IMG/VR virus record: IMGVR_UViG_3300015181_000003
Span: 1-43,728 of that record
Reading direction: 5' to 3' (one strand)
Origin: a virus
Taxonomy: Duplodnaviria > Heunggongvirae > Uroviricota > Caudoviricetes
DNA length: 43,728 nucleotides
The notes under the pieces were generated by a model. That model was not told the origin of the DNA. It worked only from the letters and a program-made list of their open reading frames with translations, and searched no databases. Position 1 is the first letter of the stretch. Each line of letters starts with the position of its first letter. The translations under genes were made by a program, and so were the position numbers. Positions 450 through 32,069 of this stretch are shown in pieces.

Positions 450-481
450 TTGCACACCCCAATATAATAGGGTACTATTCA
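450..481 (+). promoter_or_regulatory. conserved promoter/operator element (TTGCAC-N7-TATAAT-AGGGTACTATTCA) driving the 510..2097 module
   Basis: Perfect TATAAT at 463..468 about 40 nt upstream of ATG 510. Near-identical copies lie upstream of minus-strand operons at 22094..22125 and 20629..20660. Contains inverted repeat TAATAG-N4-CTATTC overlapping the -10. Confidence 0.45.
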
Positions 482-9782: not shown

Positions 9783-10100
9783 GTTTCTCCTTTCTCGATA
9801 AGTAAAGCCCCGCCTTAAAGCGGGGTGCTAGTCCTTATCATTTAAACATAGAAACGGCGTAATCTCAGTAAACCAGTTACTTTTTACACAAGCAATAGAC
9901 TATGGCCCTTCCGAACGCGTCAGCGTAACTACACTCAGGACTTACGTCCCGCTCCGTTACCTGCCCGCGCCGCGGTCGCTTGTTCATACTTCACAAGCTC
10001 AGGTGGAGCTTAGCATATTTTTAGTGAAAAGTCAACTATTCGAATAGTTTATTCCAACATTTACAATTCGGTGGAATAACTGGAATAATCACAGGCACTA

Positions 10101-10586: not shown

Positions 10587-11662
10587 TATTCCCCTTTCAG
10601 ATAATCAGCAACACGTTTATCTAGTTCCGCCATCTGCTTAAGCGTAAGCGGATTCCCGAAACCATCTACAGATATTACGCGAAACTCTTCCGGCGATATA
10701 CCGCTGTTACGGAAAATCTTACCCCGCACCGGGCCGAGCGCCTGGTCCTGAAACCATGCCGGTTGTTGTTTAAGGAACTCATAATAGGTGGTATCTGCGC
10801 TTACCTGGGTACCTCCGTCCGCGCCCTTAGCCACACGTTTTGCGCCTTTATCGAGGAAGTCGAACTCTGAACTTATCACCGGTGCCGTGGTACTTCGGCA
10901 ATTCGGATGGGCGGGTGGCATTGGCCCTTTACCAATTTCCCACGTCATTCCGTCCCTGGCTCTGCAAATCGTACTGGTACGGCTATCGAGCGTTGACACC
11001 CACTCGTATTTCTCGATGATGTCGTCGTTCTGGTGGTACGTCTCGTTACGGGCTTCGTTGGATACGTGAGACAGCGCGGTGCGGATTACGGTAGCTGCGT
11101 TTCGTTCAGAGATGTCAGCCAGCCCGCCGGCACCAACAACATTCTTAACAATCTGCCGTGTAGTCTGGCCTTGGACAAAGCCCATCTTAACGCCGGTTAC
11201 GAGGCGCGCGACTTCCGTTTCACCCCAGCCCGACATCAGCTTAGTGAAGTCAACCGGCTTATCACTTAGTGACAGAGGCTGAAACTCGGCGGCGGCCCAC
11301 ACCTGTTCGGCGGTAGGCGTAACAAATTCCGCGTTAACGTTGGCGGTCAGGGTCTTCGCGTTCCACTCAGCTTCATACGCCGCCAGTTCCTTAAGGTCTT
11401 CTGTCAGCTTTGTCTGCCAGTCACCTGTAAGTCCGGTCAGTGCTTCTTCCAGGTCGCGTAATAGTTTATTCAGCCGCGCAGTGCTTCGCCCGTCGTCACC
11501 GAACAACAGCACCTGCCGTTTGATTTCGTCTCGCATTTCCTGAATGAACGGTGCGAGGTCTTTCACCTCGCCTGATGCGGTGCGTTGCAGCCAAATCTGG
11601 TGGCTGATTAGGGATGTAAGTAAGCTCATAGATAAACCCTGTGGCGCTAAAGTTAATAGCAT
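10586..11662 (-). CDS. head morphogenesis protein (Mu gpF / SPP1 gp7-like)
   Basis: 358 aa with STLDSRTSTICRARDG motif typical of this family; follows portal. The start may be the internal ATG at 11629 because a hairpin sits 9 nt upstream of 11662. Confidence 0.7.
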   Translation of the reverse strand: MLLTLAPQGLSMSLLTSLISHQIWLQRTASGEVKDLAPFIQEMRDEIKRQVLLFGDDGRSTARLNKLLRDLEEALTGLTGDWQTKLTEDLKELAAYEAEWNAKTLTANVNAEFVTPTAEQVWAAAEFQPLSLSDKPVDFTKLMSGWGETEVARLVTGVKMGFVQGQTTRQIVKNVVGAGGLADISERNAATVIRTALSHVSNEARNETYHQNDDIIEKYEWVSTLDSRTSTICRARDGMTWEIGKGPMPPAHPNCRSTTAPVISSEFDFLDKGAKRVAKGADGGTQVSADTTYYEFLKQQPAWFQDQALGPVRGKIFRNSGISPEEFRVISVDGFGNPLTLKQMAELDKRVADYLKGE

Positions 11663-11670
11663 ACTATAAG

Positions 11671-17264: not shown

Positions 17265-17293
17265 AATATAATAGGGTCTAAGGTAATAGTCAA
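17265..17293 (-). promoter_or_regulatory. sigma70-like promoter (TTGACT-17-TATATT) for the small-gene operon
   Basis: Minus strand reads TTGACT, 17-nt spacer, TATATT; lies between a strong terminator and the first small ORFs. Confidence 0.45.
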
Positions 17294-17313
17294 CTAGTCA
17301 TTACAGAAAATAG

Positions 17314-17347: not shown

Positions 17348-17379
17348 AAAACTGGAGAGCAGAGGGATGGAACAGGAGG

Positions 17380-17481: not shown

Positions 17482-17518
17482 CTAAGTATCGTCGGATTAG
17501 TCTCAGGTGTCAATTGGT

Positions 17519-17552: not shown

Positions 17553-17678
17553 TCATAAGCCCCTGAACCCTACGCAGTCTCCACCGCTTGGGCTGCTGCT
17601 TCTGGTTTACCAGGGCTTAGTATGCAAATACGAAAAACTTGGCCTAACGATAATACTAAACGCCTTCGTATTCGTCCA

Positions 17679-18164
17679 TCATTTAACTGCCCTCCCAATA
17701 GCCTCCGCCTCCTGCCACGGTTTGCCGTCGAATAGCGCCAGACGACCGGCGGTACGACGACGCAGGCCAAGTAACGGTTTGCCGTTCTGGTTGATGAACA
17801 GCGCCAGCTTAGCCCGCAGTGTCACAATATCCCCAGAACGCAGCGCCTTGCCCGTGCCAGTAGTAGCCGCAATCACACCAGCACCCGCGTTATACACCAG
17901 GTCACACACTGCATCAAACTGTTCCTGTGTAAGTGAATGGTGCGCTGCTGCGTCAACCGCAGCTACTGCCTTAGCCATATCACGATTCAGTAGCAGGAGT
18001 CCCTGCCCTGGCGTGATGGTCTTGCCTGGTGTTACGTCCGGCCCGTAGTGCCCGTACCCAATAGTCAGGTACTTCTCGTTCGACGTAGCGCGATATGCAG
18101 TGCCGCGGAATCCCTCGAATGCAGCGGTAAAATGCAGCCCATTATCTGAAATGTTTCGAGACAC
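17679..18164 (-). CDS. endolysin (phage lysozyme, GH24-like)
   Basis: 161 aa with FEGFRGTAYRATSNEKYLTIGYGH lysozyme signature. Confidence 0.85.
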   Translation of the reverse strand: MSRNISDNGLHFTAAFEGFRGTAYRATSNEKYLTIGYGHYGPDVTPGKTITPGQGLLLLNRDMAKAVAAVDAAAHHSLTQEQFDAVCDLVYNAGAGVIAATTGTGKALRSGDIVTLRAKLALFINQNGKPLLGLRRRTAGRLALFDGKPWQEAEAIGRAVK

Positions 18165-18414
18165 GCTTATGTCCTCCGTATGCCAGCCACGCCTGACGAA
18201 TCTGGCGCAGCGCGACTAATGTGATTAATGTCTCAGGCAACGTCGGGGACATGCTGCCCTGTAACAGGTGGATGCATCCGGCAGCGCAGACGATAGCTGT
18301 CAGGATATAAAGAACCCGACCAAATAATCCGTCGTCAACGCTGGGGTGATACACATTAAACAGCGATGTGCCTCCGATTGCCAGCATACCGCCGAACCAG
18401 AATAGCTCATTCAT
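18142..18414 (-). CDS. holin/antiholin-like membrane protein (90 aa)
   Basis: Internal ATG with GAGGAGG SD; two predicted TM helices; between the holin-like gene and endolysin. Track ORF extends to 18567 in a frame overlapping the holin. Confidence 0.4.
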   Translation of the reverse strand: MNELFWFGGMLAIGGTSLFNVYHPSVDDGLFGRVLYILTAIVCAAGCIHLLQGSMSPTLPETLITLVALRQIRQAWLAYGGHKRVSKHFR

Positions 18415-18715
18415 CTGGGCCTCCTCGACGTGCAATGTATTCTCCGGCGACGATGCCAGAAAGACGGGAATAGATAGGCATCCAGAGAATGGCGATGATG
18501 AAGCCCAGGCCCGCGATTTCACGGTCGCCCGTGATACCAAACCATTGAGCGGCAAGAGGTGCGCCAAATACGGCGCAGGTGAAGCCGGTTACAATAAAGA
18601 ATAAGCCGTCGATGGGACCAGAAATAACGGACTTATGTTGTCGTAGTCCGATTACCCCTCCGGCTAGTGCGGCAGCGAGAAGCCAGCCTGTCACTGTTTC
18701 AGTAAATTTATCCAA
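18407..18715 (-). CDS. holin-like membrane protein (102 aa)
   Basis: Multiple hydrophobic helices and a charged C-terminus; immediately upstream of the endolysin block. Confidence 0.45.
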   Translation of the reverse strand: MDKFTETVTGWLLAAALAGGVIGLRQHKSVISGPIDGLFFIVTGFTCAVFGAPLAAQWFGITGDREIAGLGFIIAILWMPIYSRLSGIVAGEYIARRGGPDE

Positions 18716-18790
18716 GATGAATCCTCCAGGTGCGTATTAAGTATGCAGTAACTGGAGGATAGCACGGTTAGGAATTATCTTAATAACGGT

Positions 18791-19084
18791 TTATTTATGC
18801 CTCCAGATGTATTGTCGTCTCTGTGGTTTCGTCGGGATATCTTCATAACCCAGCGATTTCCAGTAATTAAATAACCGATTAGCGATTGCTGCTCGTTCCT
18901 TTGTTTTAAACTCACCTAGATTCACAGCTTTCCCGTTCTGGAACCCACAGGCGCGGATAGCTTTACGCCGTTCTTGTATCTCGGGGTACAGCGCATTACG
19001 GCGGCGCTTATGTATTCTGGTGTTCGCTCTCGGTGACAGCGGCGTAAGGCCGCTTCGTTTCAGGATGTCAGTTGCGAGGCTCAT
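18791..19084 (-). CDS. hypothetical basic protein (97 aa)
   Basis: ATG at 19084 overlaps the upstream stop; Arg/Lys-rich; track ORF extends to 19135 with a GTG start. Confidence 0.4.
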   Translation of the reverse strand: MSLATDILKRSGLTPLSPRANTRIHKRRRNALYPEIQERRKAIRACGFQNGKAVNLGEFKTKERAAIANRLFNYWKSLGYEDIPTKPQRRQYIWRHK

Positions 19085-19278
19085 AATAACCCCAAAGTTT
19101 CGAGTTTCTCGCATAGAGAATCTGGTAATTCGCACAGATTAACCTGGTCGGTTAGTAGGCATAGAACGGCGTATAGGTCCTCATAGTCTTCGTAACTTAC
19201 CCAGCCGCCGTCCGTATCTTCCTCTAAGTCAATATGGCCAGTAACACAGTCTTCTTTTAACTCATATCTCTGCAGCAT
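19081..19278 (-). CDS. hypothetical acidic protein (65 aa), paralog of 19278..19532
   Basis: Starts MLQRYELKED...GGWVSYEDYEDL, similar to the neighbouring protein; ATG overlaps the upstream stop. Confidence 0.4.
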   Translation of the reverse strand: MLQRYELKEDCVTGHIDLEEDTDGGWVSYEDYEDLYAVLCLLTDQVNLCELPDSLCEKLETLGLL

Positions 19279-19532
19279 CACTCTACCCCTTCCACATGTG
19301 TGACCGACCCACAGTTCGCGCACTCGACGTAATCAGGGAACTGGTCCTTGTATTTCTGTAACTCGGCGTTTACTTCTGCCAGTCTTGCCACAAGCCCTTC
19401 TATCTCCATGTCCGTAGTTGTTATGTAGTCCTGGAAACTGTTGTCCAGCTCCGCGTAGTCTTCGTAACCTACCCAATCACCTTCATCGTGCGGCCCTATT
19501 AAACCACCTTGTAATAAGTATCTCTGTACCAT
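19278..19532 (-). CDS. hypothetical acidic protein (84 aa), paralog of 19081..19278
   Basis: Starts MVQRYLLQGG...GDWVGYEDYAEL; AGGAGA SD; C-terminal CxxC. Confidence 0.4.
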   Translation of the reverse strand: MVQRYLLQGGLIGPHDEGDWVGYEDYAELDNSFQDYITTTDMEIEGLVARLAEVNAELQKYKDQFPDYVECANCGSVTHVEGVE

Positions 19533-19533
19533 G

Positions 19534-19737
19534 TTATTTCTCCTGTTTACCAAGTCGCTTAGGTGAGCAGATAGCACGTACCTCTGAGTCGTTGGGCTTG
19601 TCGCCCTGAAACAGGAAGTGCGCGTTCTCTGCGGCGCGTGCCGCTGACTGGCACGCCCCCATAGAGTAAAACGTTTCTGCTGTCGCGAGGTGCATCTGGC
19701 CTGCGGACAGTACCCATATAAAGAGGATGCTGGTCAT
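19534..19737 (-). CDS. small secreted protein with signal peptide (67 aa)
   Basis: N-terminal hydrophobic signal-like segment MTSILFIWVLSAGQMHLATA; ATG overlaps the upstream stop. Confidence 0.4.
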   Translation of the reverse strand: MTSILFIWVLSAGQMHLATAETFYSMGACQSAARAAENAHFLFQGDKPNDSEVRAICSPKRLGKQEK

Positions 19738-20156
19738 CAGAAGTATTCCCCGCACGTTTTACATACTTTCGTACCGAACGGTGCGGAGCCATCTGTTACT
19801 ACATAATAGAAACTGTAGGGCCATCTCTGAGTATCGTCCTTACGGCAACCAGATTGTTCCGGCGTTACGGGCGTCGGGGTGCACCGACAATTTACCGTCG
19901 CCCCGGGCACATGTTCACCCACTACATAGCGCTGACCTGCGGGGATGTACCCACCTTTGCGGATAAGTTTGTACGCCTCCACGTCACCCGTAGCTTGGGC
20001 CAATGCCAGATGCAACTCCTTAATCTGCGCCGACGCGTCACGTAACTGATTCTTAAGTGACTGCACCTCATGCGCCAGGTCTTCGCACTGGTTGTTATTT
20101 ACCTGCTGCCGTAACTGGTCAATCAGGTACTCGAATACTTCGTTTTTATTACTCAT
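19737..20156 (-). CDS. coiled-coil protein with C-terminal Cys-rich domain (139 aa)
   Basis: ATG at 20156 with GGAGGAG SD (track start 20258 lies inside the upstream gene); CxC...C...CxxC cluster at the C-terminus. Confidence 0.45.
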   Translation of the reverse strand: MSNKNEVFEYLIDQLRQQVNNNQCEDLAHEVQSLKNQLRDASAQIKELHLALAQATGDVEAYKLIRKGGYIPAGQRYVVGEHVPGATVNCRCTPTPVTPEQSGCRKDDTQRWPYSFYYVVTDGSAPFGTKVCKTCGEYF

Positions 20157-20367
20157 CTTCTGTCTCCTCCCCGTTATATTCTTCGAACACAATGTCATCA
20201 TCTGCGGATAGCGCCCATCGGCCGTAACCAGTGTAATAGACCTCAAGTTCAGTGCCATTGCCGTCTATTATGTAGCAGCGGCTCTCGTCGCCGTCTTCTT
20301 TGAGGTGATACAAGTCGTTTTTAGTCAGCACCCAATAGCCATTGTAAGATTTGCATTCCAGGAACAT
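20149..20367 (-). CDS. hypothetical acidic protein (72 aa)
   Basis: Track ORF in the early operon; acidic C-terminus. Confidence 0.4.
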   Translation of the reverse strand: MFLECKSYNGYWVLTKNDLYHLKEDGDESRCYIIDGNGTELEVYYTGYGRWALSADDDIVFEEYNGEETEDE

Positions 20368-20389
20368 CTTCTGCCTCTCCTCTCGTTAG

Positions 20390-20599
20390 TTAAGCAACAA
20401 CCGCGACAATCACCGATACGCACAAGAAAACGGTTATTGCGAAAAATAGCATGAACGACCACTCAGATAACTTACCAATAGCTGTGCGGTATGTGACGTT
20501 TGTGCAATTACGTGTCATGTGCATATCCACAACACCGAAACCTACGCCTGCGGCGAACGCCAGCACTCCAACCAAGGCAACCGCGATAAAAATAATCAT
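20390..20599 (-). CDS. small membrane protein (69 aa)
   Basis: ATG at 20599 with GGATAAGGAA SD; two hydrophobic helices; directly downstream of a conserved promoter element. Confidence 0.45.
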   Translation of the reverse strand: MIIFIAVALVGVLAFAAGVGFGVVDMHMTRNCTNVTYRTAIGKLSEWSFMLFFAITVFLCVSVIVAVVA

Positions 20600-20628
20600 C
20601 TTCAAATTCCTTATCCCGTTTGTGTAAA

Positions 20629-20660
20629 TGAATAGTAGCCTATTCTATCTTAGCGTGCAA
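20629..20660 (-). promoter_or_regulatory. conserved promoter/operator element (minus strand: TTGCAC-N7-TAGAAT-AGGCTACTATTCA)
   Basis: Third copy of the element found at 450..481 and 22094..22125; contains perfect inverted repeat GAATAG-N4-CTATTC; about 40 nt upstream of ATG 20599. Confidence 0.45.
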
Positions 20661-20667
20661 GTAAATT

Positions 20668-20952
20668 TTATTGGTGTTTGTATTGTTGCATCTCCTGCAG
20701 CGCGGAGAATGCTTCAATAACTCCGTTAGCCTTTAGCCAGTGGTACACGAACACATCGCTCGGAGACGGCGCTCCAAGAATCCCGACGATATTTAGGTGT
20801 GACACTAACCCTTCAATTTCGCGCATGGAATAAATATCATGCGAACGACCGCTTTCAAGGGTTAGTGTCGCGTCACTGAATGGCGTGCCGTCGGTATGAC
20901 CTACGCCTGTCATGAAGCCGCGTAAGAATTCTATCTTCTCTCTGTCTGTCAT
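20668..20952 (-). CDS. hypothetical protein (94 aa)
   Basis: Track ORF; ATG preceded by a GGAGA SD. Confidence 0.45.
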   Translation of the reverse strand: MTDREKIEFLRGFMTGVGHTDGTPFSDATLTLESGRSHDIYSMREIEGLVSHLNIVGILGAPSPSDVFVYHWLKANGVIEAFSALQEMQQYKHQ

Positions 20953-21008
20953 TGTTGCGTCTCCTGCAATAGTCGCTTCGATTGTTGCGTTTTGTGAAAT
21001 AGAACAAA

Positions 21009-21043
21009 AATGAGAAAAATGATACGCTGCTGTGTAGCAGCGT
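21009..21043 (-). terminator. rho-independent terminator after DUF551-like gene
   Basis: Stem ACGCTGCT / AGCAGCGT with loop GTGT followed by a U-rich tract on the minus strand. Confidence 0.5.
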
Positions 21044-21085
21044 AAGTCACTCAGTAAAAGCCCAAACTATTGTTACAATATAACA

Positions 21086-21280
21086 TCACACTTCCGGCGG
21101 CTCTGGTAACGGCATCCAGTGAGTTACATCGTCAATATCGATGTTTGAGCTACGCGGCGCCCAACAATCCCAGAAACCGTCGCAATCCCACCACATCACC
21201 TCAACGTTACCACCATCCGAAACCAGCACATATTCAAAATCATCCGGCATCCGCTCGCTACACTTAATCCACCCACCCAT
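21086..21280 (-). CDS. DUF551-like phage protein
   Basis: 64 aa with CSERMP...W...W...VTHWMPLPEPPE pattern recalled from the DUF551 family. Confidence 0.55.
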   Translation of the reverse strand: MGGWIKCSERMPDDFEYVLVSDGGNVEVMWWDCDGFWDCWAPRSSNIDIDDVTHWMPLPEPPEV

Positions 21281-21283
21281 AAA

Positions 21284-21427
21284 TCACCTCTGATTCGCGA
21301 TAAACAACACACCAGCTTTCCACGCCCGCCACGCGAGACGGGTCTTAACATTTAGGTACTCTTTCTTTGAACCCTTGTTAACCGGCAGACCCTCGACGAC
21401 GGCCCACCGTTCGAATGCTTCTCTCAT
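21284..21427 (-). CDS. hypothetical protein (47 aa)
   Basis: Not in the track; ATG with GGAGG SD at 7-nt spacing; tightly packed between neighbours. Confidence 0.3.
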   Translation of the reverse strand: MREAFERWAVVEGLPVNKGSKKEYLNVKTRLAWRAWKAGVLFIANQR

Positions 21428-21430
21428 AAC

Positions 21431-21622
21431 TCAGTCCTCCAGAACTTCACATTCACGGTTACGTACGTACAGTTCCTCGCCGCGGTGTTCGACGAAGTGG
21501 CCAAAATCATTACTCGACGTAACCTCGAACTCATCCCCGACTGAGATACCAAAGTATCGCAGTGGGCGGTCGCCATAACCTGACGGCAACACATAATCAA
21601 CATCAGTTATACGTATTTTCAT
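21431..21622 (-). CDS. hypothetical protein (63 aa)
   Basis: ATG at 21622 with GAGGGAGG SD (track start 21631 is TTG). Confidence 0.4.
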   Translation of the reverse strand: MKIRITDVDYVLPSGYGDRPLRYFGISVGDEFEVTSSNDFGHFVEHRGEELYVRNRECEVLED

Positions 21623-21658
21623 TAACGGCAACCTCCCTCAGAGTCGTTGGCACGAGCA

Positions 21659-21877
21659 TCATGATTCGATGCCGTTGTGAATGATGCGGAAACAACATTG
21701 AAGAAAACTAACGGTTAAAGTCTCGTCCACAGTGTCCTCTAAATCCCATTCATCACCGTCTTCATCTAAAACGTATCGACGGCCGTCGTAATATACTCCT
21801 GACGAATATTTGTTACCTTTCACAAACCAATCCTGCACATCCTGGCTGGATCCAATACAAATTAATTCTTCCATCAC
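21659..21877 (-). CDS. hypothetical acidic protein (72 aa)
   Basis: Track ORF; start overlaps the upstream stop. Confidence 0.4.
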   Translation of the reverse strand: MMEELICIGSSQDVQDWFVKGNKYSSGVYYDGRRYVLDEDGDEWDLEDTVDETLTVSFLQCCFRIIHNGIES

Positions 21878-22062
21878 TTCGCCCCTTTGAATTTAAAATT
21901 GTTGCCGATGAGTTCTAAATATTCCGCGCTTACAGTTGCATGACCGCCAGTAAATACATTGCGAAGTTTACAAATAGAGGAACTGCCTCTGTTGTTGGTG
22001 GAAAATACGGAGTACAAACATCCCGACTTTTTACTACGGACCAACTGACCCTTCTTAAACAT
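21874..22062 (-). CDS. hypothetical protein (62 aa), first gene of the leftward early operon
   Basis: ATG at 22062 with GAGGG SD (track start 22071 is GTG); about 45 nt downstream of the conserved promoter element. Confidence 0.4.
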   Translation of the reverse strand: MFKKGQLVRSKKSGCLYSVFSTNNRGSSSICKLRNVFTGGHATVSAEYLELIGNNFKFKGAK

Positions 22063-22093
22063 AACCCTCACTCCTCTGTCCCGTTTCGATAAG

Positions 22094-22125
22094 TGAATAG
22101 TATCCTATTATATCGGGGTGTGCAA
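22094..22125 (-). promoter_or_regulatory. conserved promoter/operator element (minus strand: TTGCAC-N7-TATAAT-AGGATACTATTCA), leftward early promoter
   Basis: Perfect TATAAT on the minus strand at about 22112..22107; nearly identical to 450..481 (+) and 20629..20660 (-). Confidence 0.5.
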
Positions 22126-22197
22126 GAGAATAGTTACGTTGCCGTTGTGATTCTTCAGGCAGGGTTGTGCCTTTATTCTTATTACTTGGTAACTAAA

Positions 22198-22218
22198 GGG
22201 CAGGCCTTAAGCCTGCCC
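22198..22218. promoter_or_regulatory. perfect GC-rich hairpin/palindrome in the early control region
   Basis: GGGCAGGC-CTTAA-GCCTGCCC, 8-bp perfect stem. Confidence 0.35.
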
Positions 22219-22505
22219 AATAATCGTTACATTTTTACGGTTGCGAATCTACGGCATTTTAAGAAAATCAGATACTTAAGATATATGCTGCCGATGAGAA
22301 TAGAGCTTGCCCAGGGCAACCGGAGATACTTAGGAAGGAAAGTTACGATAATTCTCATGTTCAGTAAACTTTCGCTTAACACTTTGCTTGCGCTGCGCGC
22401 AGCTGCGTTTTAAGCGGTTTTACAAGGTGAACAGGAATCAAAGTAACTAAGATATAGAAGCACCTTAAACGAAGATTTTCATAATGTCAATAGGTGCAAT
22501 TATGT

Positions 22506-22534
22506 TTGATTTCCCATTATTCGCAATGTATACT
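22506..22534 (+). promoter_or_regulatory. candidate rightward early promoter (TTGATT-17-TATACT)
   Basis: -35-like TTGATT, 17-nt spacer, -10-like TATACT about 33 nt upstream of ATG 22567 with GAGGG SD. Confidence 0.4.
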
Positions 22535-22566
22535 TGGTTTCGTTAACTGATAATGAGGGCTTTGGA

Positions 22567-22737
22567 ATGACACAGAATGAAGTGGCAGAGCGTATCGGGG
22601 TTACCCGTCGCACGCTGAATAACTGGTTAAAGAGCGGGAAGTTCCCGGATTGTTGTATTCGCATTATGGGTCGTCGTCAGCCAGGTACATTTGACCCGGA
22701 GAAAGTGGAAGCGTGGATTAAGGAGAACGTAAAATGA
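22567..22737 (+). CDS. HTH DNA-binding protein (AlpA/excisionase-like small regulator)
   Basis: 56 aa from ATG 22567 (track start 22534 is TTG and overlaps the promoter); motif VAERIGVTRRTLNNWLKSGKFP. Confidence 0.55.
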   Translation: MTQNEVAERIGVTRRTLNNWLKSGKFPDCCIRIMGRRQPGTFDPEKVEAWIKENVK

Positions 22738-22967
22738 CCGAGTTCCAGTCACGCGTATTTACGGCGGTCGTTTCGCTAACACGTAAAAAAGGGTCGTGCA
22801 GCGTTATCGACTTGCGCCGTAGTTATTTTAAGTACTATAGTTCCGCCATTATTGAAGGGTCGTTGAAGGTGCTGGTTAAATCCGGTGTCGTGAAAAATGT
22901 TGGTGGGAAATATAGCGCCGTTGCAGAAGTTCGCGGAATGACCGCTACTTTAGAAGACCTGGAATAA
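22734..22967 (+). CDS. hypothetical protein (77 aa)
   Basis: ATG overlaps the upstream stop (ATGA). Confidence 0.45.
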   Translation: MTEFQSRVFTAVVSLTRKKGSCSVIDLRRSYFKYYSSAIIEGSLKVLVKSGVVKNVGGKYSAVAEVRGMTATLEDLE

Positions 22968-23025
22968 AAGAAAGCCCCGACGCGGTGAACGCCGAGGCCA
23001 AATTACTTGCTGAAGGAAATACAAC

Positions 23026-25266
23026 ATGTCCGATGTAATTTTATCCTACTCGTGGTCTCGTCGCAACGCGCGGGCGGAGAAAAAGGATATAAACGTCAGA
23101 ACCACACACACGGCAACACTGGACGACCTGAAAGAGTTAATCCGGCCGCTCGATGCTGTTCGTGACGGGATTAACCCCAAGACCGCGCCGGGGTATATCA
23201 CTGCCGCGTGTGACTCTACACACAGCACCGTAAAAGACCTGGAAACCGGTGACTTTAAGCAAGCGCGCAAAGGCTTCTTCTACCGCTGTGACGCGTCCGT
23301 AAGCAAATCATCGCTGGCGTACCTGGACTTTGACAGCGCAACGCCGGAAGAGTACCAGGAAGCGGTGCGCCTGGTTAAGCGCAGCCGCCTGGCTATGTGC
23401 CTCTACACCACGGCATCACATACTGACGAGTCACCGCGCTTTCGCGTAGTCATGCCGCTGGCCCGCCCGGTCGAAGGCGGTGACATCATTCGAGTTCGTC
23501 ACGGATTGCTGGAGCACTTCTTCAAAGGCATGGGCGCTGACCGCAGCGGGTTTACGCTGTCCCAGCCTATGTACCTGCCGCCGGTTGGCTCTCAGGTTAT
23601 CTGGTCGCGTCGCAACGACCTGATCGACCCGGACGAGTTACTGGAAGGCACCCCCGCCGTTGACGTTAGCAGCGCATCGGATTACCAGATACCTGAAGAA
23701 CTGCGCACCGCGTTTACTGATGCGTTCGAGGCACTGGCGTTTGAGTACGGCGGCATCATGACGCCCCGCGGCCTTAAGATGCCAGCTACACCAGAACACG
23801 CAGAAAACTACAGCGACCCGACGCCTCGCCCGGACGACTTCCTGTTGTGTTTTCCGCGCGAGGGATATGAAGCGCCGAACGTAACCATGATTCACGACAC
23901 CGACATTACGGCAACTGAAGGCATGTCTCCGAAAGAGGTGTGGAAGTATGCGTGCGACGCGACCGGGCTGCCGTTCAGTGAAGTGGCAGAGGCCATAGGT
24001 TGGGGTGCGCGTGAATCCGTTTCATGCAGCCTCGACGACCTGGAAGACGAGGATGACTCAGAGGAGTACGAGCTACCGGAACCTGTAAAGGCTGATTTCG
24101 TCGTAGAAGGGTATATGCCGTCGGATTGTATATGGGATATCGTCGGGGAGTCGGGCACATACAAATCGTTCTATACTCTGGGGATGATGTACCTTAGCGC
24201 CGCCGGATACCGGTTCGCCGGGGCGGACACCCAGCGTTGCCATCACTTCTATATCGACGGTGAGGGGGGTGCTGCTACACGTACACGTATTGACGCACTC
24301 GCGGCTAAATACGGCGAGGAAGGTAAAGATTATGTACACGTCATCGATATGGGCGAAGTCGGCAAACTGAAGAGCCTGATTAAGTTAATGCGCGAAACTG
24401 CTGGCGACGAGCCGATCGGCATGGTTGCGTTCGACACCCTTAACCAGACCCTGGCCCTGACGATTGATAAATTCGACGAGAACAGTTCATCGACGGCGAT
24501 TGGCATGGGTAAAGTTATCGCCATTCTGAAAGAAGTACGCGACGCAACTAAAGCCGCGGTAGGCGTTGTTCACCACACACCGAAAGGTGGAAAGAAAGCC
24601 CGTGGCAGCGGGGCACTGTATGCGGGTGTCGACGTGGAGCTAACAATTGAACGTGCGACCGACCGCCAGATAAACGTATACCACTCTAAATTTAAGCACG
24701 GGCCGCAACAGAAGACGGTTGGTATGGTGCTGGAGTCTGTACAGTTCCGTGAAGCCCCGCCGCCGAAAGAGTACCGTGCGGTTGAGTTCCTGGGTAACAC
24801 AGAGGAATACGGCACAATCATAAACCTCGACCTGCCGGAGCCGCATAAGGCACTTGTACTGATGCCGTGGGGCTTTGAGCCGTTTAAGACTGACGAGGAG
24901 AAAGAGCGGGAAGAAGGGCTGACAAAGGAAGGTAAAGAAAACGTAAAGAACGCTGTAAAACGTGGAAAGGATGAAGGGCGTAAGGAATCAATACTTGCCG
25001 CGCTGGAAGACCTGCAACAGTCAGACGACACCGGACTAGGTTTTACACAACGGCAGATAGTGGCGAATTCGGGCGACCACGCCATAACCAACCATCATCT
25101 CGAGAAGATGCTGAAAGACGGTGAGTTGATGCTTGGATGTGATATTAACGGTGAAGTTATACCTGGTACCTACCGGATACCAGAAAAGATGGGTGACAGA
25201 TTAAGGCCGAAGACAATATACGAACCGAATGAAATGCTAACAGTGACAGAGGAGGATTTGGAATAG
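23026..25266 (+). CDS. putative DNA primase/helicase (N-terminal primase-like region, central P-loop ATPase, Lys/Glu-rich tail)
   Basis: 746 aa. DxD-containing N-terminal region (LAYLDFDSA); Walker A-like GESGTYKS and hhhhD-like MVAFDT. Family assignment is by motif recall only. Confidence 0.5.
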   Translation: MSDVILSYSWSRRNARAEKKDINVRTTHTATLDDLKELIRPLDAVRDGINPKTAPGYITAACDSTHSTVKDLETGDFKQARKGFFYRCDASVSKSSLAYLDFDSATPEEYQEAVRLVKRSRLAMCLYTTASHTDESPRFRVVMPLARPVEGGDIIRVRHGLLEHFFKGMGADRSGFTLSQPMYLPPVGSQVIWSRRNDLIDPDELLEGTPAVDVSSASDYQIPEELRTAFTDAFEALAFEYGGIMTPRGLKMPATPEHAENYSDPTPRPDDFLLCFPREGYEAPNVTMIHDTDITATEGMSPKEVWKYACDATGLPFSEVAEAIGWGARESVSCSLDDLEDEDDSEEYELPEPVKADFVVEGYMPSDCIWDIVGESGTYKSFYTLGMMYLSAAGYRFAGADTQRCHHFYIDGEGGAATRTRIDALAAKYGEEGKDYVHVIDMGEVGKLKSLIKLMRETAGDEPIGMVAFDTLNQTLALTIDKFDENSSSTAIGMGKVIAILKEVRDATKAAVGVVHHTPKGGKKARGSGALYAGVDVELTIERATDRQINVYHSKFKHGPQQKTVGMVLESVQFREAPPPKEYRAVEFLGNTEEYGTIINLDLPEPHKALVLMPWGFEPFKTDEEKEREEGLTKEGKENVKNAVKRGKDEGRKESILAALEDLQQSDDTGLGFTQRQIVANSGDHAITNHHLEKMLKDGELMLGCDINGEVIPGTYRIPEKMGDRLRPKTIYEPNEMLTVTEEDLE

Positions 25267-25269
25267 GTA

Positions 25270-25295
25270 AAAAGAAAGGGGCGTTAAGCCCCTTC
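25270..25295 (-). terminator. terminator hairpin between convergent genes
   Basis: Stem AAGGGGC / GCCCCTT with loop GTTAA; U-rich on the minus-strand side. Confidence 0.45.
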
Positions 25296-25499
25296 ACCTA
25301 ATGCCAGCCACTTGGCGTCTACTTGCAGCACTTCCGCCAGTTTAAACAGCGTCGCCGGGCGGACGTCCTGAGTTACCCCAAGCGCAAGCTGGTTAATTGC
25401 GCCCTGGGAAACGCCAGCCAGGACCGCCAGACGGCGCTGGGAGATGCCGAGTTCTTTACGGCGTTGTTCTACACGGATGCCTAGTTCAGATGGTTGCAT
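25284..25499 (-). CDS. XRE-family (Cro/CI-type) HTH transcriptional regulator
   Basis: 71 aa with HTH ISQRRLAVLAGVSQGAINQL; AAGGAG SD; transcribed divergently from the 25625 operon across an operator-bearing region. Confidence 0.7.
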   Translation of the reverse strand: MQPSELGIRVEQRRKELGISQRRLAVLAGVSQGAINQLALGVTQDVRPATLFKLAEVLQVDAKWLALGEGA

Positions 25500-25563
25500 G
25501 TCAGTTACTCCTTAGTCAGTTGATATGCGAATAGTACCATATTAATTATTTTAGAAAAGCCCA

Positions 25564-25593
25564 TTGACAACATGAATAGCTAGCTATTATAGT
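25564..25593 (+). promoter_or_regulatory. sigma70-like promoter with embedded palindromic operator
   Basis: TTGACA at 25564..25569, TATAGT at 25588..25593 (18-nt spacer); spacer contains perfect palindrome AATAGCTAGCTATT. Confidence 0.5.
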
Positions 25594-25624
25594 TAGCCCA
25601 TACCAAACGGGAGGAGAGAAACAA

Positions 25625-26140
25625 ATGTTAGACCAATTCTTAAAATTACTGGAACGTTTCGTAGTCGCACATGAACTGATTGCTGCGAATAGTTCGAAAC
25701 AAGTTGTCGTCGCCGAAGTAGATGGGTTAACCGCAGAGACTAAAGCAGACGTAGTTCGTTCCGTTGTAAAAGCTGAAGAAACAAAAGAAATCCCAGTCGA
25801 AGGTGAAGACCCAGTCGAAGGTGAAGACCTTGTTGACACTAAACCGGCAGAAGAAGAGAAGCCTAAACGCAAGCCGCGTAAAGCTAAAGCCGAGGAACCG
25901 ACGCCAGAACCGGAAGAAGAGAAAGAAGAAGTCGATTATCAGTCTCTTCGTGACCAGATTCAGGCTATCGACGATGCGATTAACGAAGGTCCGAGCGATG
26001 CCGCATGCGATGACTCCGATGAACTGCTGGAAGAGTTCACTGGTAAGAAGATGAAGATTGCCGCGATTAAAGACGAAGACCTGGCTGAATACCTGGAACG
26101 CCTGACGGCAATCAAGAACAAGTATTTCGAAGAAGAATAA
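25625..26140 (+). CDS. acidic low-complexity protein (171 aa)
   Basis: GGAGGAG SD; Glu/Asp-rich with PVEGED x2 encoded by an 18-bp tandem repeat at 25793..25828. Confidence 0.5.
   Translation: MLDQFLKLLERFVVAHELIAANSSKQVVVAEVDGLTAETKADVVRSVVKAEETKEIPVEGEDPVEGEDLVDTKPAEEEKPKRKPRKAKAEEPTPEPEEEKEEVDYQSLRDQIQAIDDAINEGPSDAACDDSDELLEEFTGKKMKIAAIKDEDLAEYLERLTAIKNKYFEEE
25793..25828 (+). repeat. 18-bp perfect tandem repeat x2 (CCAGTCGAAGGTGAAGAC)
   Basis: Two exact adjacent copies inside the coding region of 25625..26140. Confidence 0.8.
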
Positions 26141-26183
26141 TTATCCCGCGGCCTTCGGGCCGCTTTAACTGAGGGTCGGAAAT

Positions 26184-26393
26184 ATGATTATTAAAGATTT
26201 CTTTGACGATGCTACCGAAGTTTCCGTTAAAGTTCGGGACACGATGCAAGGTAAACAAAAGTTAGTATCTATTGACTTCAACCCGTTTGACTGCGGGTAT
26301 GATTTGAATTTTATGGAGTATACGCCTGATGTGGCGCGAGAACTTGCTAAAGCGCTTATTGCCGCCGCAGATGAAGCGGAGTATATGTCATGA
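26184..26393 (+). CDS. hypothetical acidic protein (69 aa)
   Basis: Track ORF with GAGGG SD; preceded by a GCGGCC / GGCCGC hairpin. Confidence 0.45.
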   Translation: MIIKDFFDDATEVSVKVRDTMQGKQKLVSIDFNPFDCGYDLNFMEYTPDVARELAKALIAAADEAEYMS

Positions 26394-26662
26394 TTTACCA
26401 ACTCTACCGGGCCGTTGACAGGCGGGATAATACGGAGGCGCTATGGTTATTGCGTGCACCGTCCGGCGCGCACCAGATGGAAGAGATGGCGTACTTAGGA
26501 AAAGTACCGCGGCCTAAAGATATAGGCCGCCACGTGTCGCAGATTAAGCGCACGACTTTCGCCAAACCTGACTTTTATGTCTTCGAGTCAATGTATGGGT
26601 GGGCTATGCATTGTCATCACCAAACGCGACATTTAATTGACCAGTGGGAGAACAGGGTATGA
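26390..26662 (+). CDS. hypothetical protein (90 aa)
   Basis: ATG overlaps the upstream stop; its own stop overlaps the next ATG. Confidence 0.45.
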   Translation: MIYQLYRAVDRRDNTEALWLLRAPSGAHQMEEMAYLGKVPRPKDIGRHVSQIKRTTFAKPDFYVFESMYGWAMHCHHQTRHLIDQWENRV

Positions 26663-27924
26663 TTTTAAAGGAACGCGGCGGCAACAACGATGTGCACGCC
26701 TTACTATCACCGTCGGGTGCTAAGAAGTGGCTAACCTGCGCGGCGTCACTGGCCTGTGAAAAAGATATTCCTAACACGTCAGGTAAGGCCGCAGTGTTAG
26801 GCACAGCTATGCACACTATAGCTGAGGTCCATCTAAACCAGTACATCAAAGGCACTGCGTTACCGTTAGAGCGCGAAGTTGGCGCTTACGTGCTGGATGA
26901 GGGTAAAGGCCAGATTAAGGCGCTAATCAGCCAGATGAAATGTGCGGTGCTGATTACGGCGGACATGATTGAACAGGTGCGCAAGTACACAGACTACTGC
27001 AAAGCGATTATCGATGTAGCGACTTACGCCAAACTCGAGATGCGTGTCAATCTTACTGAGGTATTGCATCCGGGGTACATCCATAGCCCTGGCGGACGGC
27101 AAGAAGAACTACAGACGTTCGGAACGGCTGACCTTGTTGCCGTTCAGGAACTGGCTAACACCGACGAGCACATGCTTATCATCGGCGACCTGAAAACTGG
27201 ACGGCATCGTGTCGAAGCGAAAGAAAACAAACAGCTTATGCTCTACGCTCTCGGTGTTTATCGCCGCCTCAAGAGACGATATAACATCACAGTTGTTCGT
27301 CTGGTAATCTTCCAGCCGTACGCTGGCGGCGCGTCGGAGTGGGACATTTCTGTTGAAGGTCTGGAACTGTTCGCCAAGTTTGCGCAGAAACGAGCACTGT
27401 TAGCTCTTGATGCGTATTTCCGTGGTAAAAAGAACCTGAAAGCGTCGGACTTCAGGCCGTCGGTCGATGGTTGCCAGTGGTGTCGGTTCTCTGAACAATG
27501 CGCCGCGCGTACAAAGACGGTTAATTCTGTACTTGCGGAAGAACTGGAAGACGACTTTGCTCTTGAACTTACGCCTGAGCAACTCGTAGTCGAGTATGAG
27601 AAGCTGCCGCTGTTGCGCCAGCACATCGACAAGGTTGAGAAAGCGATGACCGCCGCGTTGCATTCCGGTAAGAAAGTGCCGGGGTACAAGCTGGTTGGAG
27701 GCCGCCCGGGTAATCGTGCGTGGAAAGATTCCGATGCAGTATTCGAGAAGTACGGCACTATGCTGCAAAAGGTAGTTCTCATGACGCCGACCGAAGCTGT
27801 TAAAGTAATACCGGAAGAAGAACTGAAAGACTTTATTACCCGTAAGCCTGGTGCACCATGCGTTGCAACGACAGACGATAAACGGCCTGAGTGGAATCAG
27901 GTTAGCGAAGAAGATTTAGAATAA
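26659..27924 (+). CDS. PD-(D/E)XK Cas4-like exonuclease (DUF2800-type)
   Basis: N-terminal LSPSGAKKWLTC and C-terminal Cys cluster CQWCRFSEQC (Fe-S-like), recalled as the phage Cas4-like nuclease family signature. Confidence 0.6.
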   Translation: MILKERGGNNDVHALLSPSGAKKWLTCAASLACEKDIPNTSGKAAVLGTAMHTIAEVHLNQYIKGTALPLEREVGAYVLDEGKGQIKALISQMKCAVLITADMIEQVRKYTDYCKAIIDVATYAKLEMRVNLTEVLHPGYIHSPGGRQEELQTFGTADLVAVQELANTDEHMLIIGDLKTGRHRVEAKENKQLMLYALGVYRRLKRRYNITVVRLVIFQPYAGGASEWDISVEGLELFAKFAQKRALLALDAYFRGKKNLKASDFRPSVDGCQWCRFSEQCAARTKTVNSVLAEELEDDFALELTPEQLVVEYEKLPLLRQHIDKVEKAMTAALHSGKKVPGYKLVGGRPGNRAWKDSDAVFEKYGTMLQKVVLMTPTEAVKVIPEEELKDFITRKPGAPCVATTDDKRPEWNQVSEEDLE

Positions 27925-27928
27925 AGTG

Positions 27929-27957
27929 TTGACACCTGAATAGTTAGCTATTATAGT
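27929..27957 (+). promoter_or_regulatory. sigma70-like promoter with embedded operator
   Basis: TTGACA at 27929..27934, 17-nt spacer containing GAATAG-N4-CTATTA, TATAGT at 27952..27957. Confidence 0.5.
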
Positions 27958-31770: not shown

Positions 31771-32069
31771 CACCGGAAGGCAAGATTCAGAAATACGCAA
31801 AAGAGCGATTCGAGGCCATTGGTGGCCTCGTCCGTAAGCTGTCATACGAAAACAGACGCGCGGCAATGGACCTGTTAGTGGTTCTCCCCCGCGGCGTCAT
31901 CTGGTTCGTCGAGGTCAAGAAAGACGGGAACACGAAGCCAGACCCGCACCAGCTACGGGAACATGAGAGATTCCGAAAACGTGGAGCTAATGTTTTTGTC
32001 GTTGGTTCGTTCAAACAGGTTGACGACCTAATAGCAGACTATTATAGTAGTCATACACCAACAATATAA
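31767..32069 (+). CDS. VRR-NUC domain nuclease
   Basis: 100 aa with DLLVVLPRGVIWFVEVKKDG...FRKRGANVFVV pattern recalled from the VRR-NUC family. Confidence 0.6.
   Translation: MTPEGKIQKYAKERFEAIGGLVRKLSYENRRAAMDLLVVLPRGVIWFVEVKKDGNTKPDPHQLREHERFRKRGANVFVVGSFKQVDDLIADYYSSHTPTI

What the first reader, a model, noticed from the sequence alone, without database searches (positions are those of the whole stretch)
22094..22125. Recurring palindromic promoter/operator motif at five operon heads
Three intergenic sites share about 32 bp: 450..481 (+), 20629..20660 (-), 22094..22125 (-), reading TTGCAC-N7-TATAAT-AGG-N-TACTATTCA, each about 35 to 45 nt upstream of the first start codon. Two more promoters (25564..25593, 27929..27957) have TTGACA and TATAGT with the same inverted repeat GAATAG-N4-CTATT in the spacer. 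A dimeric regulator binding site overlapping the -10 would explain this, implying coordinated control of the early operons and the tail-embedded module. The TTGCAC box is too close to the -10 to be a normal -35.
Basis: seen in the sequence. Interest (0 to 1): 0.6.

Follow-up and report, generated by a model that had tools for sequence, protein, structure and literature searches.

The report
Repressor operator on phage early promoters
A 14-bp palindrome (AATAG-N4-CTATT) lies on the core of at least seven ordinary host-type promoters of this Kagunavirus phage and is most likely the binding site of the phage's own small Cro-like repressor; this is a familiar kind of control, and the motif has already been listed, with a wrong label, in published genomes of related phages.

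Summary
The window is a Kagunavirus (Guernseyvirinae) genome. The three 32-bp sites exist (0 expected by chance). All share the dyad AATAG-N4-CTATT with the two TTGACA/TATAGT promoters, with a sixth promoter at 32020-32048, and in imperfect form with the promoter of the 71-aa XRE gene. That gives 6 exact copies against 0.05 expected.

TTGCAC-N17-TACTAT is a normally spaced sigma-70 promoter, and the "TATAAT" lies in its spacer.

The dyad is the commonest exact dyad in Kagunavirus and Jerseyvirus genomes. Its arms are fixed while its centre varies (28 variants). It sits in three different registers relative to the -10. In Cornellvirus a related dyad, TATTA-N6-TAATA, replaces it. This fits an operator for a dimeric repressor that blocks RNA polymerase.

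The best candidate binder is the XRE protein. Its best solved relative is 434 Cro, and its gene lies between two dyads. A conserved 56-aa HTH_17 protein is a serious rival. No binding or transcript data exist.

Two Kagunavirus genome papers already list these sites as PHIRE "phage promoters". Modest interest; a new member of a known kind.

The parts
450..481 (+). Type A promoter plus operator. -35 TTGCAC 450-455, 17-nt spacer, -10 TACTAT 473-478, dyad AATAG-GGTA-CTATT 466-479 (centre about -12.5). Drives the superinfection-immunity gene (510-701) and the metallophosphatase-like gene (740-1870).
20629..20660 (-). Type A promoter plus operator. -35 TTGCAC 20660-20655, -10 TACTAT 20637-20632, dyad 20631-20644. 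Drives the leftward small early genes that run into the lysis cassette.
22094..22125 (-). Type A promoter plus operator (the reported finding). -35 TTGCAC 22125-22120, -10 TACTAT 22102-22097, dyad 22096-22109. Drives five small early genes (22062 to 21086), ending at terminator 21044-21023.
25564..25593 (+). Type B promoter plus operator. TTGACA, 18-nt spacer, TATAGT. Dyad AATAG-CTAG-CTATT 25575-25588 lies in the spacer (centre about -18.5). Drives the 171-aa acidic protein and the DUF2800/PD-(D/E)XK nuclease. Divergent from the XRE gene.
25530..25543 (-). Imperfect dyad AATAT-GGTA-CTATT over the -10 (TACTAT 25536-25531) of the XRE gene's own promoter. No usable -35. The G-to-T deviation creates a TGn extended -10 (TGGTACTAT). 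Nearly invariant in 38 unique Kagunavirus sequences: a single variant, in the spacer column, and the arms never vary.
27929..27957 (+). Type B promoter plus operator. TTGACA-N17-TATAGT, dyad 27939-27952. Drives the Enc34-type ssDNA-binding protein, an HNH gene and DNA polymerase A.
32020..32048 (+). TTGACG-N17-TATAGT, dyad TAATAG-CAGA-CTATTA 32029-32044. Drives a 63-aa protein, a C5 methylase and an SNF2 helicase.
25284..25499 (-). Gene for the 71-aa XRE/HTH_3 protein, the best candidate binder of the dyad. Best solved relative is phage 434 Cro, also 71 aa.
22567..22737 (+). Gene for the 56-aa HTH_17 (excisionase/MerR-like winged helix) protein, the rival candidate binder. 87-89% identical in Jerseyvirus and not detected in Cornellvirus.
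17285..17298 (-). One-mismatch dyad (ACTAG-TTGA-CTATT on the minus strand) that overlaps the -35 hexamer TTGACT of promoter-like site 17293-17265, downstream of the lysozyme gene. The mismatch is on the opposite arm in Jerseyvirus.
10027..10047 (-). Array of three half-sites, CTATT-CG-AATAG-TTGA-CTTTT, around the -35 TTGACT of a promoter-like site that heads a 260-nt leader. Conserved in other Kagunaviruses.
11655..11668 (-). One-mismatch dyad TATAG-TATG-CTATT that overlaps the start codon (11662) of the Mu-F-like head gene, directly after terminator 11688-11673. Whether it belongs to the system is uncertain.

Best explanation
The recurring element is a 14-16 bp operator, (T/G)AATAG-N4-CTATT(A/C), laid over the core of ordinary sigma-70 promoters of a virulent Kagunavirus phage.

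Host RNA polymerase reads two promoter builds:
- Type A is TTGCAC-N17-TACTAT. The right arm of the dyad supplies most of the -10.
- Type B is TTGAC(A/G)-N17/18-TATAGT. The dyad fills the spacer.

A phage-encoded dimeric helix-turn-helix protein binds the dyad and blocks RNA polymerase. The most likely binder is the 71-aa 434-Cro-like XRE protein (25284-25499, minus strand). Binding would shut down, together, the leftward early operons, the three rightward replication operons and the immunity module embedded among the tail genes.

The XRE gene's own promoter is an extended -10 promoter carrying a weakened copy of the dyad, so it would be repressed last (negative autoregulation).

Shown here: the motif, its excess over chance, its promoter context, its conservation pattern, and the family of the XRE protein.

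Inferred, not shown: that any protein binds the dyad, which protein it is, the direction of the effect (repression) and its timing.
For: Excess over chance:
- 6 exact and 10 one-mismatch copies, against 0.05 and 1.16 expected.
- The exact copies lie in intergenic promoter positions, except 32030, which falls in the last 40 nt of the uncertain ORF 31767-32069.

Promoter context:
- The three best sigma-70 matches in 15000-34900 all carry the dyad.
- TTGCAC-N17-TACTAT holds in all three type A sites.
- No RNA polymerase or sigma gene was found among the large ORFs or in annotated relatives.

The dyad is an element of its own:
- Its centre lies at about -12.5 (type A) and -18.5 (type B).
- In Jersey's ortholog of the 450 promoter it lies at about -15.5.

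Conservation pattern:
- Kagunavirus genomes carry 9-13 copies and Jerseyvirus genomes 7-10.
- The N4 centre has 28 variants in 45 unique Kagunavirus sites.
- In 38 unique Kagunavirus sequences aligned on the XRE gene, independently of the motif, the arms never vary. The variable columns are the dyad centre and the linker to the -35.

Genus-level change:
- Two Cornellvirus genomes have no copy even with one mismatch.
- They carry TATTA-N6-TAATA at equivalent promoters instead: 3 exact against 0.03-0.05 expected. That dyad is absent from the window.
- Jerseyvirus half-sites are TAATAG in 32 of 32 cases. Kagunavirus also allows G in that flank position.

The XRE protein as binder:
- Pfam HTH_3 scores 48 bits against a cut-off of 23.
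- The best solved relative is 434 Cro, of equal length. From my own knowledge, 434 Cro binds 14-bp dyads.
- Its gene lies between a perfect and an imperfect dyad, the layout expected for autoregulation.
- It is the only HTH regulator found in all three genera.
- The related DicA repressor has a tested inverted-repeat operator with half-site GTTAG (PMC3441716).
Against: - No binding, footprint or transcript 5'-end data exist for any member of this phage subfamily. The one RNA-seq study of a Kagunavirus is too coarse to use.
- The XRE proteins of Kagunavirus and Jerseyvirus are only 49% identical and differ at four of eight positions of the recognition helix (SQGAINQL against SQSLITHL), yet the two genera share the dyad.
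- The recognition helix of Jerseyvirus is closer to that of Cornellvirus (TQSAISHL), which uses a different dyad.
- The HTH_17 protein is 87-89% identical between the two genera that share the dyad and was not detected in Cornellvirus.
- The XRE-proximal intergenic region is highly conserved throughout in Kagunavirus, so invariant arms there carry limited weight.
- The information-content figures are inflated because sites were selected by their arms.
- The Cornellvirus dyad is more heterogeneous than the Kagunavirus one.
- DicA's operator has N6 spacing, not N4.
Confidence: 0.55

Rival explanations
1. The dyad is an operator, but it is bound by the 56-aa HTH_17 winged-helix protein (22567-22737), made from a promoter without a dyad at the head of the primase-helicase operon. 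The XRE protein would then have other targets.
For: - The protein is 87-89% identical between Kagunavirus and Jerseyvirus, the two genera that share AATAG-N4-CTATT.
- It was not detected in the two Cornellvirus genomes that lack the dyad.
- Its homologs in the phage collection are confined to the Kagunavirus/Jerseyvirus group (443 records).
- Its modest-confidence model weakly resembles domain-only MerR-like DNA binders (RacA, BldC, Xis, RdfS). From my own knowledge, RacA binds a 14-bp inverted repeat.
Against: - No dyad lies near its own gene.
- Most small proteins of this fold bind direct repeats head to tail rather than short palindromes (own knowledge).
- The fold matches are all weak; none reaches E of 0.001 or better, and the model has pLDDT 76.
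- Cornellvirus keeps the same layout of a dyad over the core promoter without this protein.
- The outer flank of the half-site differs consistently between genera, which is less expected for a nearly identical binder.
Confidence: 0.15
2. No dedicated regulator exists. The shared sequence is a promoter cassette copied within the genome, and the dyad arms are kept because they form part of the -10 and spacer read by host RNA polymerase.
For: - In type A sites the right arm contributes CTAT to the -10 TACTAT. In type B sites its last T begins TATAGT.
- Leaders downstream of the promoters also share sequence (ACACCAACAAT, AAACGGGA), as expected for duplicated cassettes.
Against: - The left arm lies in the spacer, where sigma-70 promoters have little sequence requirement, yet it is as conserved as the right arm.
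- The symmetry is kept in three different registers relative to the -10.
- The centre and the linker vary freely while the arms do not.
- Cornellvirus changed both arms.
- Degenerate copies also occur over -35 hexamers.
Confidence: 0.12
3. A host transcription factor binds the dyad, and the phage uses it to tie early transcription to host physiology.
For: The same dyad is used by phages of E. coli and of Salmonella even though their XRE proteins have diverged.
Against: - Cornellviruses infect Salmonella too and lack the dyad.
- I know of no E. coli regulator with this consensus; the TrpR and ArgR boxes are only superficially similar (own knowledge, not tested).
- A phage-encoded Cro-like protein sits beside two copies of the dyad.
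Confidence: 0.08
4. The sites are promoters for a phage-encoded RNA polymerase or sigma factor, as two Kagunavirus genome papers state on the basis of the PHIRE program.
For: PHIRE recovers the same seven sites in fBC-Eco01 and VB_EcoS-Golestan, and the fBC-Eco01 paper calls them phage-RNAP promoters (PMC9825357 Table S2; PMC7203180 Table S4).
Against: - No RNA polymerase or sigma family was found among the large ORFs tested here. The 849-aa ORF has no Pfam match and was taken by position to be the counterpart of Jersey's tail protein gp32; this was not tested.
- Annotated relatives list none either.
- Every site has a well-spaced sigma-70 -35 and -10.
- PHIRE only finds repeated sequence and does not identify the polymerase.
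Confidence: 0.02
5. The bound protein is an activator of the MerR type, which sits in the spacer and realigns the -35 and -10, rather than a repressor.
For: The dyad lies between the -35 and -10 in type B promoters, and the HTH_17 protein has weak MerR-like similarity.
Against: - MerR-type activation needs over-long spacers of 19-20 bp (own knowledge). Here the spacers are 17-18 bp and the hexamers are near consensus.
- The register of the dyad varies by 6 bp between promoter types, which an activator with fixed geometry would not tolerate.
Confidence: 0.05

Closest known systems
Phage 434 Cro/cI with the 14-bp operators OR1-3 and OL1-3 (lambdoid immunity region)
   Same: - A small HTH_3 protein of the same length (71 aa); 434 Cro is the best solved relative of the window's XRE protein (E 1.8e-6, full length).
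- A 14-bp dyad with conserved outer bases and a free centre.
- Operators overlap the core of sigma-70 promoters.
- The regulator gene lies in a divergent promoter region with more than one operator.
   Different: - The half-site is AATAG, not ACAA.
- The operators are single and dispersed over at least seven promoters across the genome, not clustered in two tripartite arrays.
- No cI partner or integrase is annotated in the relatives examined or reported in the papers read. The phage group is described as strictly lytic.
- Binding is untested.
DicA repressor of E. coli cryptic prophages and its operator Oc (TTGTTAGTCATAACTAACAA)
   Same: - An XRE-family HTH about 42% identical to the window's protein.
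- An inverted-repeat operator in a divergent promoter region, with in vivo evidence of binding (PMC3441716).
- The half-site ends in TAG (GTTAG), like AATAG here and ATTAG in Cornellvirus.
   Different: - DicA is 135 aa and has an extra C-terminal domain.
- The arms are 6 nt apart, not 4.
- The one tested operator lies at its own locus, not across a genome-wide set of promoters.
Dispersed repressor sites of temperate phages: P1 C1 operators and mycobacteriophage L5 gp71 stoperators
   Same: One phage repressor recognises many copies of a short site scattered over the genome, several of them over promoters (own knowledge).
   Different: - Those sites are asymmetric and belong to temperate phages that maintain lysogeny.
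- L5 stoperators act inside transcription units rather than on core promoters.
PHIRE 'phage-specific promoters' reported for Kagunavirus fBC-Eco01 and VB_EcoS-Golestan
   Same: They are the same sequences. The fBC-Eco01 consensus is tgAATAGTa-ccTATTat-T; seven sites are listed per genome, including the imperfect copy beside the XRE gene.
   Different: Those papers treat them as promoters (fBC-Eco01: for a phage RNA polymerase). They mention neither the dyad symmetry, nor the sigma-70 hexamers around it, nor a repressor.

Membership tests
Sigma-70 (host housekeeping) promoter | A -35 hexamer resembling TTGACA with the TTG kept | tested here: met
   TTGCAC three times, TTGACA twice, TTGACG once. 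TTGCAC is strongly conserved in 73 unique relatives.
Sigma-70 (host housekeeping) promoter | A spacer of 17 +/- 1 bp to a -10 hexamer of the form TAnnnT | tested here: met
   TACTAT at 17 nt in the three type A sites. TATAGT at 17, 17 and 18 nt in the type B sites. The XRE promoter has TGnTACTAT (extended -10) and no -35.
Sigma-70 (host housekeeping) promoter | Transcription starts 6-8 nt downstream of the -10 | not testable with these tools
   No 5'-end data. The published RNA-seq of Kagunavirus K1B4 gives only gene-level time classes.
Cro/CI-type (XRE, HTH_3) repressor-operator system | A regulator with an HTH_3 domain | tested here: met
   Pfam HTH_3 at 48.1 bits against a cut-off of 23. 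PHROG families of transcriptional repressors. 434 Cro and 434 repressor are the top solved relatives.
Cro/CI-type (XRE, HTH_3) repressor-operator system | A dyad-symmetric operator of about 14-18 bp with conserved arms and a variable centre | tested here: met
   AATAG-N4-CTATT. The arms are invariant and the centre has 28 variants in 45 unique sites.
Cro/CI-type (XRE, HTH_3) repressor-operator system | The operator overlaps the core promoter, and copies lie next to the regulator gene | tested here: met
   Dyad centres lie between about -12.5 and -18.5. Copies at 25530-25543 and 25575-25588 flank the XRE gene's upstream region.
Cro/CI-type (XRE, HTH_3) repressor-operator system | The protein binds the operator as a dimer and represses transcription | not testable with these tools
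   Needs a gel shift or footprint and in vitro transcription. The distribution among genera does not separate the XRE protein from the HTH_17 protein.
Lambdoid lysis-lysogeny switch | A paired CI-type maintenance repressor together with integration or plasmid-maintenance genes | tested here: not met
   Only one XRE gene was found among the proteins tested. No integrase is annotated in Jersey, Shemara, VSiA or SZH-1. Papers on the genus report no lysogeny genes.
Phage-RNA-polymerase promoter (as claimed from PHIRE output) | The phage encodes its own RNA polymerase or sigma factor | tested here: not met
   No such family among the ten largest ORFs or among the early-region proteins tested. None is annotated in relatives.
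MerR-type activator acting from the spacer | An over-long 19-20 bp spacer between -35 and -10 | tested here: not met
   All spacers are 17 or 18 bp.

The most novel reading that the evidence does not exclude
These phages are treated as strictly virulent and are used for therapy and food biocontrol. They may nevertheless carry a complete repressor circuit able to silence almost the whole early genome.
- A lone Cro-like protein would be made from an extended -10 promoter that needs no -35.
- It would act on operators of graded strength: perfect on the early and replication promoters, weakened on its own promoter and on the promoters leading to the lysis and late genes.
- This could give either a timing cascade run by host polymerase alone or, more provocatively, a reversible silent carrier state without integration.
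Probability: 0.1. Interest if true: 0.6.

Novelty: new member of a known kind. Interest (0 to 1): 0.3.

Why it matters
Kagunavirus and Jerseyvirus phages are widely isolated for therapy and for biocontrol of Salmonella and E. coli, yet their gene regulation has not been studied.

Recognising the repeated motif as a repressor operator on host-type promoters matters in three ways:
- It corrects a published mislabel ("phage RNA polymerase promoters").
- It defines the early regulon: seven promoters covering the immunity, early, replication and methylase/helicase modules.
- It names two small proteins to test.

It also provides a compact, portable promoter-operator pair for engineering these phages. 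If the repressor can silence the early genome, it would bear on the assumption that these phages are strictly lytic.

Tried and rejected
1. Rfam at gathering thresholds over the whole window gave no hit. The dyad lies upstream of the likely transcript starts, so an RNA element was rejected.

2. I looked for XRE relatives outside the subfamily to test co-variation between the recognition helix and the dyad.
- The IMG/VR scan gave 58 loci. Nearly all are Kagunavirus, Jerseyvirus or Cornellvirus. The single intermediate (77% identity, L045) has the same helix and the same dyad.
- The scan of bacterial genomes gave only one close hit, probably phage contamination, and otherwise generic XRE proteins.
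- Co-variation therefore could not be pushed beyond three genera.

3. Phage GE_vB_HIL looked like a natural XRE variant, but its XRE reading frame shifts partway through in an "UNVERIFIED" record. I read this as sequencing error; it was not informative.

4. I searched for a separate repeated motif near the HTH_17 gene that could be its own target. Only short two-copy repeats turned up.

5. The temporal RNA-seq paper on Kagunavirus K1B4 has only 57 gene calls and three coarse classes. Its gene numbers could not be mapped to the XRE gene from the held supplements.

6. A single-sequence model of the HTH_17 protein was searched against solved structures. The matches were only weak and did not settle whether it binds palindromes.

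7. The promoter scanner proposed ATCACA-N17-TATAAT at 440-468. I rejected it because the other two type A sites and the relatives have no equivalent -35.

8. A sigma-54 reading of TTGCAC was rejected because there is no GC element at the -12 position.

Full report
**What the window is.** Megablast of 20000-26000 finds 422 phage records, the best about 90% identical. All are Escherichia or Salmonella siphoviruses of the subfamily Guernseyvirinae, genus Kagunavirus. Pfam assigns terminase, portal, tail tube, tape measure, tailspike, DNA polymerase A and a primase-helicase to the large ORFs. No RNA polymerase or sigma factor appears among them, and annotated relatives list none. All transcription must therefore use host RNA polymerase.

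**The observation.**
- The 32-bp pattern matches three times with at most one mismatch, against none in 100 shuffles.
- What all five sites share is the dyad AATAG-N4-CTATT.
- In an unbiased count of every 5-N(0-8)-5 exact dyad it is the most frequent in the window, with six copies at 466, 20631, 22096, 25575, 27939 and 32030.
- Markov shuffles give 0.05 exact copies and 1.16 copies with one mismatch. The observed counts are 6 and 10.
This is one of the three best sigma-70 matches between 15000 and 34900, and all three carry the dyad.
- The one-mismatch copies are at 25530 (next to the XRE gene), at 17285 and 10027 (both overlapping a TTGACT -35 hexamer) and at 11655 (overlapping the start codon of a head gene).

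**Reading the promoters.** In all three type A sites TTGCAC is followed after exactly 17 nt by TACTAT:
- 450-455 and 473-478;
- 20660-20655 and 20637-20632;
- 22125-22120 and 22102-22097.

TACTAT is invariant, whereas the "TATAAT" is TAGAAT at 20660 and CATAAT in relatives. In phage Jersey the orthologous promoter has a perfect TTGACA 18 nt before TACTAT and only 8 nt before CATAAT. Among 73 unique relatives TTGCAC is strongly conserved, and the bases 10 nt further upstream are not.

The scanner's alternative at site 1, ATCACA-N17-TATAAT, has no counterpart at the other two sites. The type A sites are therefore normally spaced sigma-70 promoters, and the "TATAAT" lies in their spacer. Type B sites are TTGAC(A/G)-N17/18-TATAGT.

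**The dyad is an element of its own.**
- Relative to the -10, its centre lies at about -12.5 in type A and about -18.5 in type B.
- In Jersey's ortholog of the 450 promoter (TTGCAT-N17-TATTAT) it lies at about -15.5.
- A promoter-recognition element or an activator site would keep a fixed register. A site that only has to block polymerase need not.

**Comparative evidence.**
- The dyad (up to one mismatch) occurs 9-13 times in four other Kagunavirus genomes and 7-10 times in two Jerseyvirus genomes, always at the equivalent promoters.
- It does not occur at all in two Cornellvirus genomes.
- Cornellvirus promoters carry TATTA-N6-TAATA instead: 3 exact copies against 0.03-0.05 expected, and 6-8 with one mismatch against about 1. 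That dyad is not enriched in the window or in Jersey.
- The two dyads have the same geometry and differ by one symmetric transversion per half-site (AATA against ATTA).
- Among 45 unique Kagunavirus sites the N4 centre takes 28 forms.
- I aligned 38 unique Kagunavirus sequences on the XRE gene, so that sites were not chosen by the motif. The arms never vary there. The variable columns are two positions of the dyad centre and the linker to the -35, which also carries a 1-nt indel. That region is conserved overall, so this is supportive rather than decisive.
- Jerseyvirus half-sites read TAATAG in 32 of 32 cases. Kagunavirus has T 45, G 33, C 6 and A 6 at that flank position.

**The XRE protein as candidate binder.**
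- The 71-aa protein at 25284-25499 (minus strand) is an HTH_3 protein, scoring 48 bits against a cut-off of 23.
- Its best solved relatives are 434 Cro, also 71 aa and aligned end to end, and 434 repressor.
- From my own knowledge, 434 operators are 14-bp dyads with fixed outer bases and a free centre.
- The gene is divergent from the 25564 promoter, which carries a perfect dyad.
- Its own promoter carries AATAT-GGTA-CTATT over the -10. That promoter has no usable -35, and the single G-to-T deviation creates TGGTACTAT, an extended -10. This is inference from sequence, but it is nearly invariant in Kagunavirus: one variant, in a spacer column.
- The XRE protein is the only HTH regulator detected in all three genera.
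- DicA, about 42% identical in the HTH domain, has an operator with in vivo support, TTGTTAGTCATAACTAACAA (PMC3441716). A related prophage locus shows the same GTTAG-N6-CTAAC dyads. The half-site resembles ours, but the spacing differs.

**The rival binder.**
- The XRE proteins are only 49% identical between Kagunavirus and Jerseyvirus, and the recognition helix differs (SQGAINQL against SQSLITHL). The Jerseyvirus helix is closer to that of Cornellvirus, TQSAISHL.
- The 56-aa HTH_17 protein at 22567-22737 is 87-89% identical between Kagunavirus and Jerseyvirus, was not detected in Cornellvirus, and is confined to this group in the phage collection.
- Its model (pLDDT 76) weakly resembles RacA, BldC, Pukovnik Xis and RdfS, with no match at E of 0.001 or better.
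- No dyad lies near its gene.
- I could not separate the two candidates by computation. I rate the XRE protein clearly more likely, on three grounds: operator geometry, the autoregulatory layout, and the fact that Cornellvirus keeps the same architecture without the HTH_17 protein.

**Mechanism proposed.** Host sigma-70 polymerase starts at seven promoters:
- the immunity and metallophosphatase module (450);
- two leftward early operons, one running into the lysis genes (22125, 20660);
- three rightward replication operons (25564, 27929, 32020);
- the XRE gene itself.

The XRE dimer accumulates, occupies the perfect dyads and blocks polymerase. At higher levels it would occupy its own weakened site. 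The copies at 17285 and 10027 are also imperfect and may likewise be weaker sites, but that is untested. The 15080 late promoter and the HTH_17/primase operon carry no dyad. Every step after "promoters with a conserved dyad" is inferred.

**What is already known.** Two Kagunavirus genome papers list these very sites as PHIRE "promoters", seven per genome, including the imperfect copy beside the XRE gene. One gives the consensus tgAATAGTa-ccTATTat-T and assigns the sites to a phage RNA polymerase (PMC9825357; PMC7203180). Jersey's GenBank record annotates the same positions as sigma-70 promoters. I found no paper that notes the dyad symmetry, proposes a repressor, or reports binding or 5'-end data.

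**Verdict.** The motif itself is therefore not new. What this analysis adds is the operator reading, the corrected promoter anatomy, and the Cornellvirus variant. The kind of system, Cro-type operators on sigma-70 promoters, is textbook. This is a new member of a known kind, and of modest interest.

Noticed in passing
window 22126-22566: A 440-nt stretch without a convincing gene lies between the divergent 22125 promoter and the HTH_17/primase operon. It holds a strong terminator-like hairpin on the minus strand (22218-22198) directly upstream of the promoter, and two copies of AGATACTTA(A/G)GA 54 nt apart. It could be a replication origin or a small RNA gene. Rfam gave no hit.
   Followed up: partly
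window 9783-10047 (minus strand): A promoter-like TTGACT is embedded in an array of three half-sites (CTATT-CG-AATAG-TTGA-CTTTT). A leader of about 260 nt follows, with a hairpin at 9825-9808, before the 128-aa gene that starts at 9782. The array is conserved in other Kagunaviruses. The purpose of the long leader is unexplained.
   Followed up: no
window 11655-11668: A one-mismatch dyad (TATAG-TATG-CTATT on the minus strand) overlaps the ATG of the Mu-F-like head morphogenesis gene, immediately after terminator 11688-11673. It is conserved in two relatives and is listed as a PHIRE promoter in VB_EcoS-Golestan. It could be a chance match or a real late-gene control site.
   Followed up: no
window 28014-28652: The Enc34-type ssDNA-binding protein is 65% identical to the Cornellvirus protein but only 45% identical to the Jerseyvirus one and to that of another Kagunavirus (L004). 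This reverses the pattern of the neighbouring genes, so the gene appears to have been exchanged between genera while its dyad-bearing promoter stayed in place.
   Followed up: partly
window 2126-2758 (minus) and 28683-29039 (plus): Two HNH homing-endonuclease genes interrupt otherwise co-linear modules (the PHROG HNH families match the first strongly). One sits inside the dyad-controlled module embedded among the tail genes.
   Followed up: no
L069 (NZ_JACVEL010000022.1, assigned to Taishania pollutisoli): A 19-kb scaffold assigned to a Bacteroidota isolate encodes an XRE protein as similar to the query as the Jerseyvirus proteins are (49% identity). This is probably phage contamination of the assembly.
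   Followed up: no
Published records for fBC-Eco01 (PMC9825357) and VB_EcoS-Golestan (PMC7203180): The seven repeated sites are published as phage-specific promoters. In fBC-Eco01 they are assigned to a phage-encoded RNA polymerase, although no such gene exists in the genus. That annotation should be corrected.
   Followed up: yes
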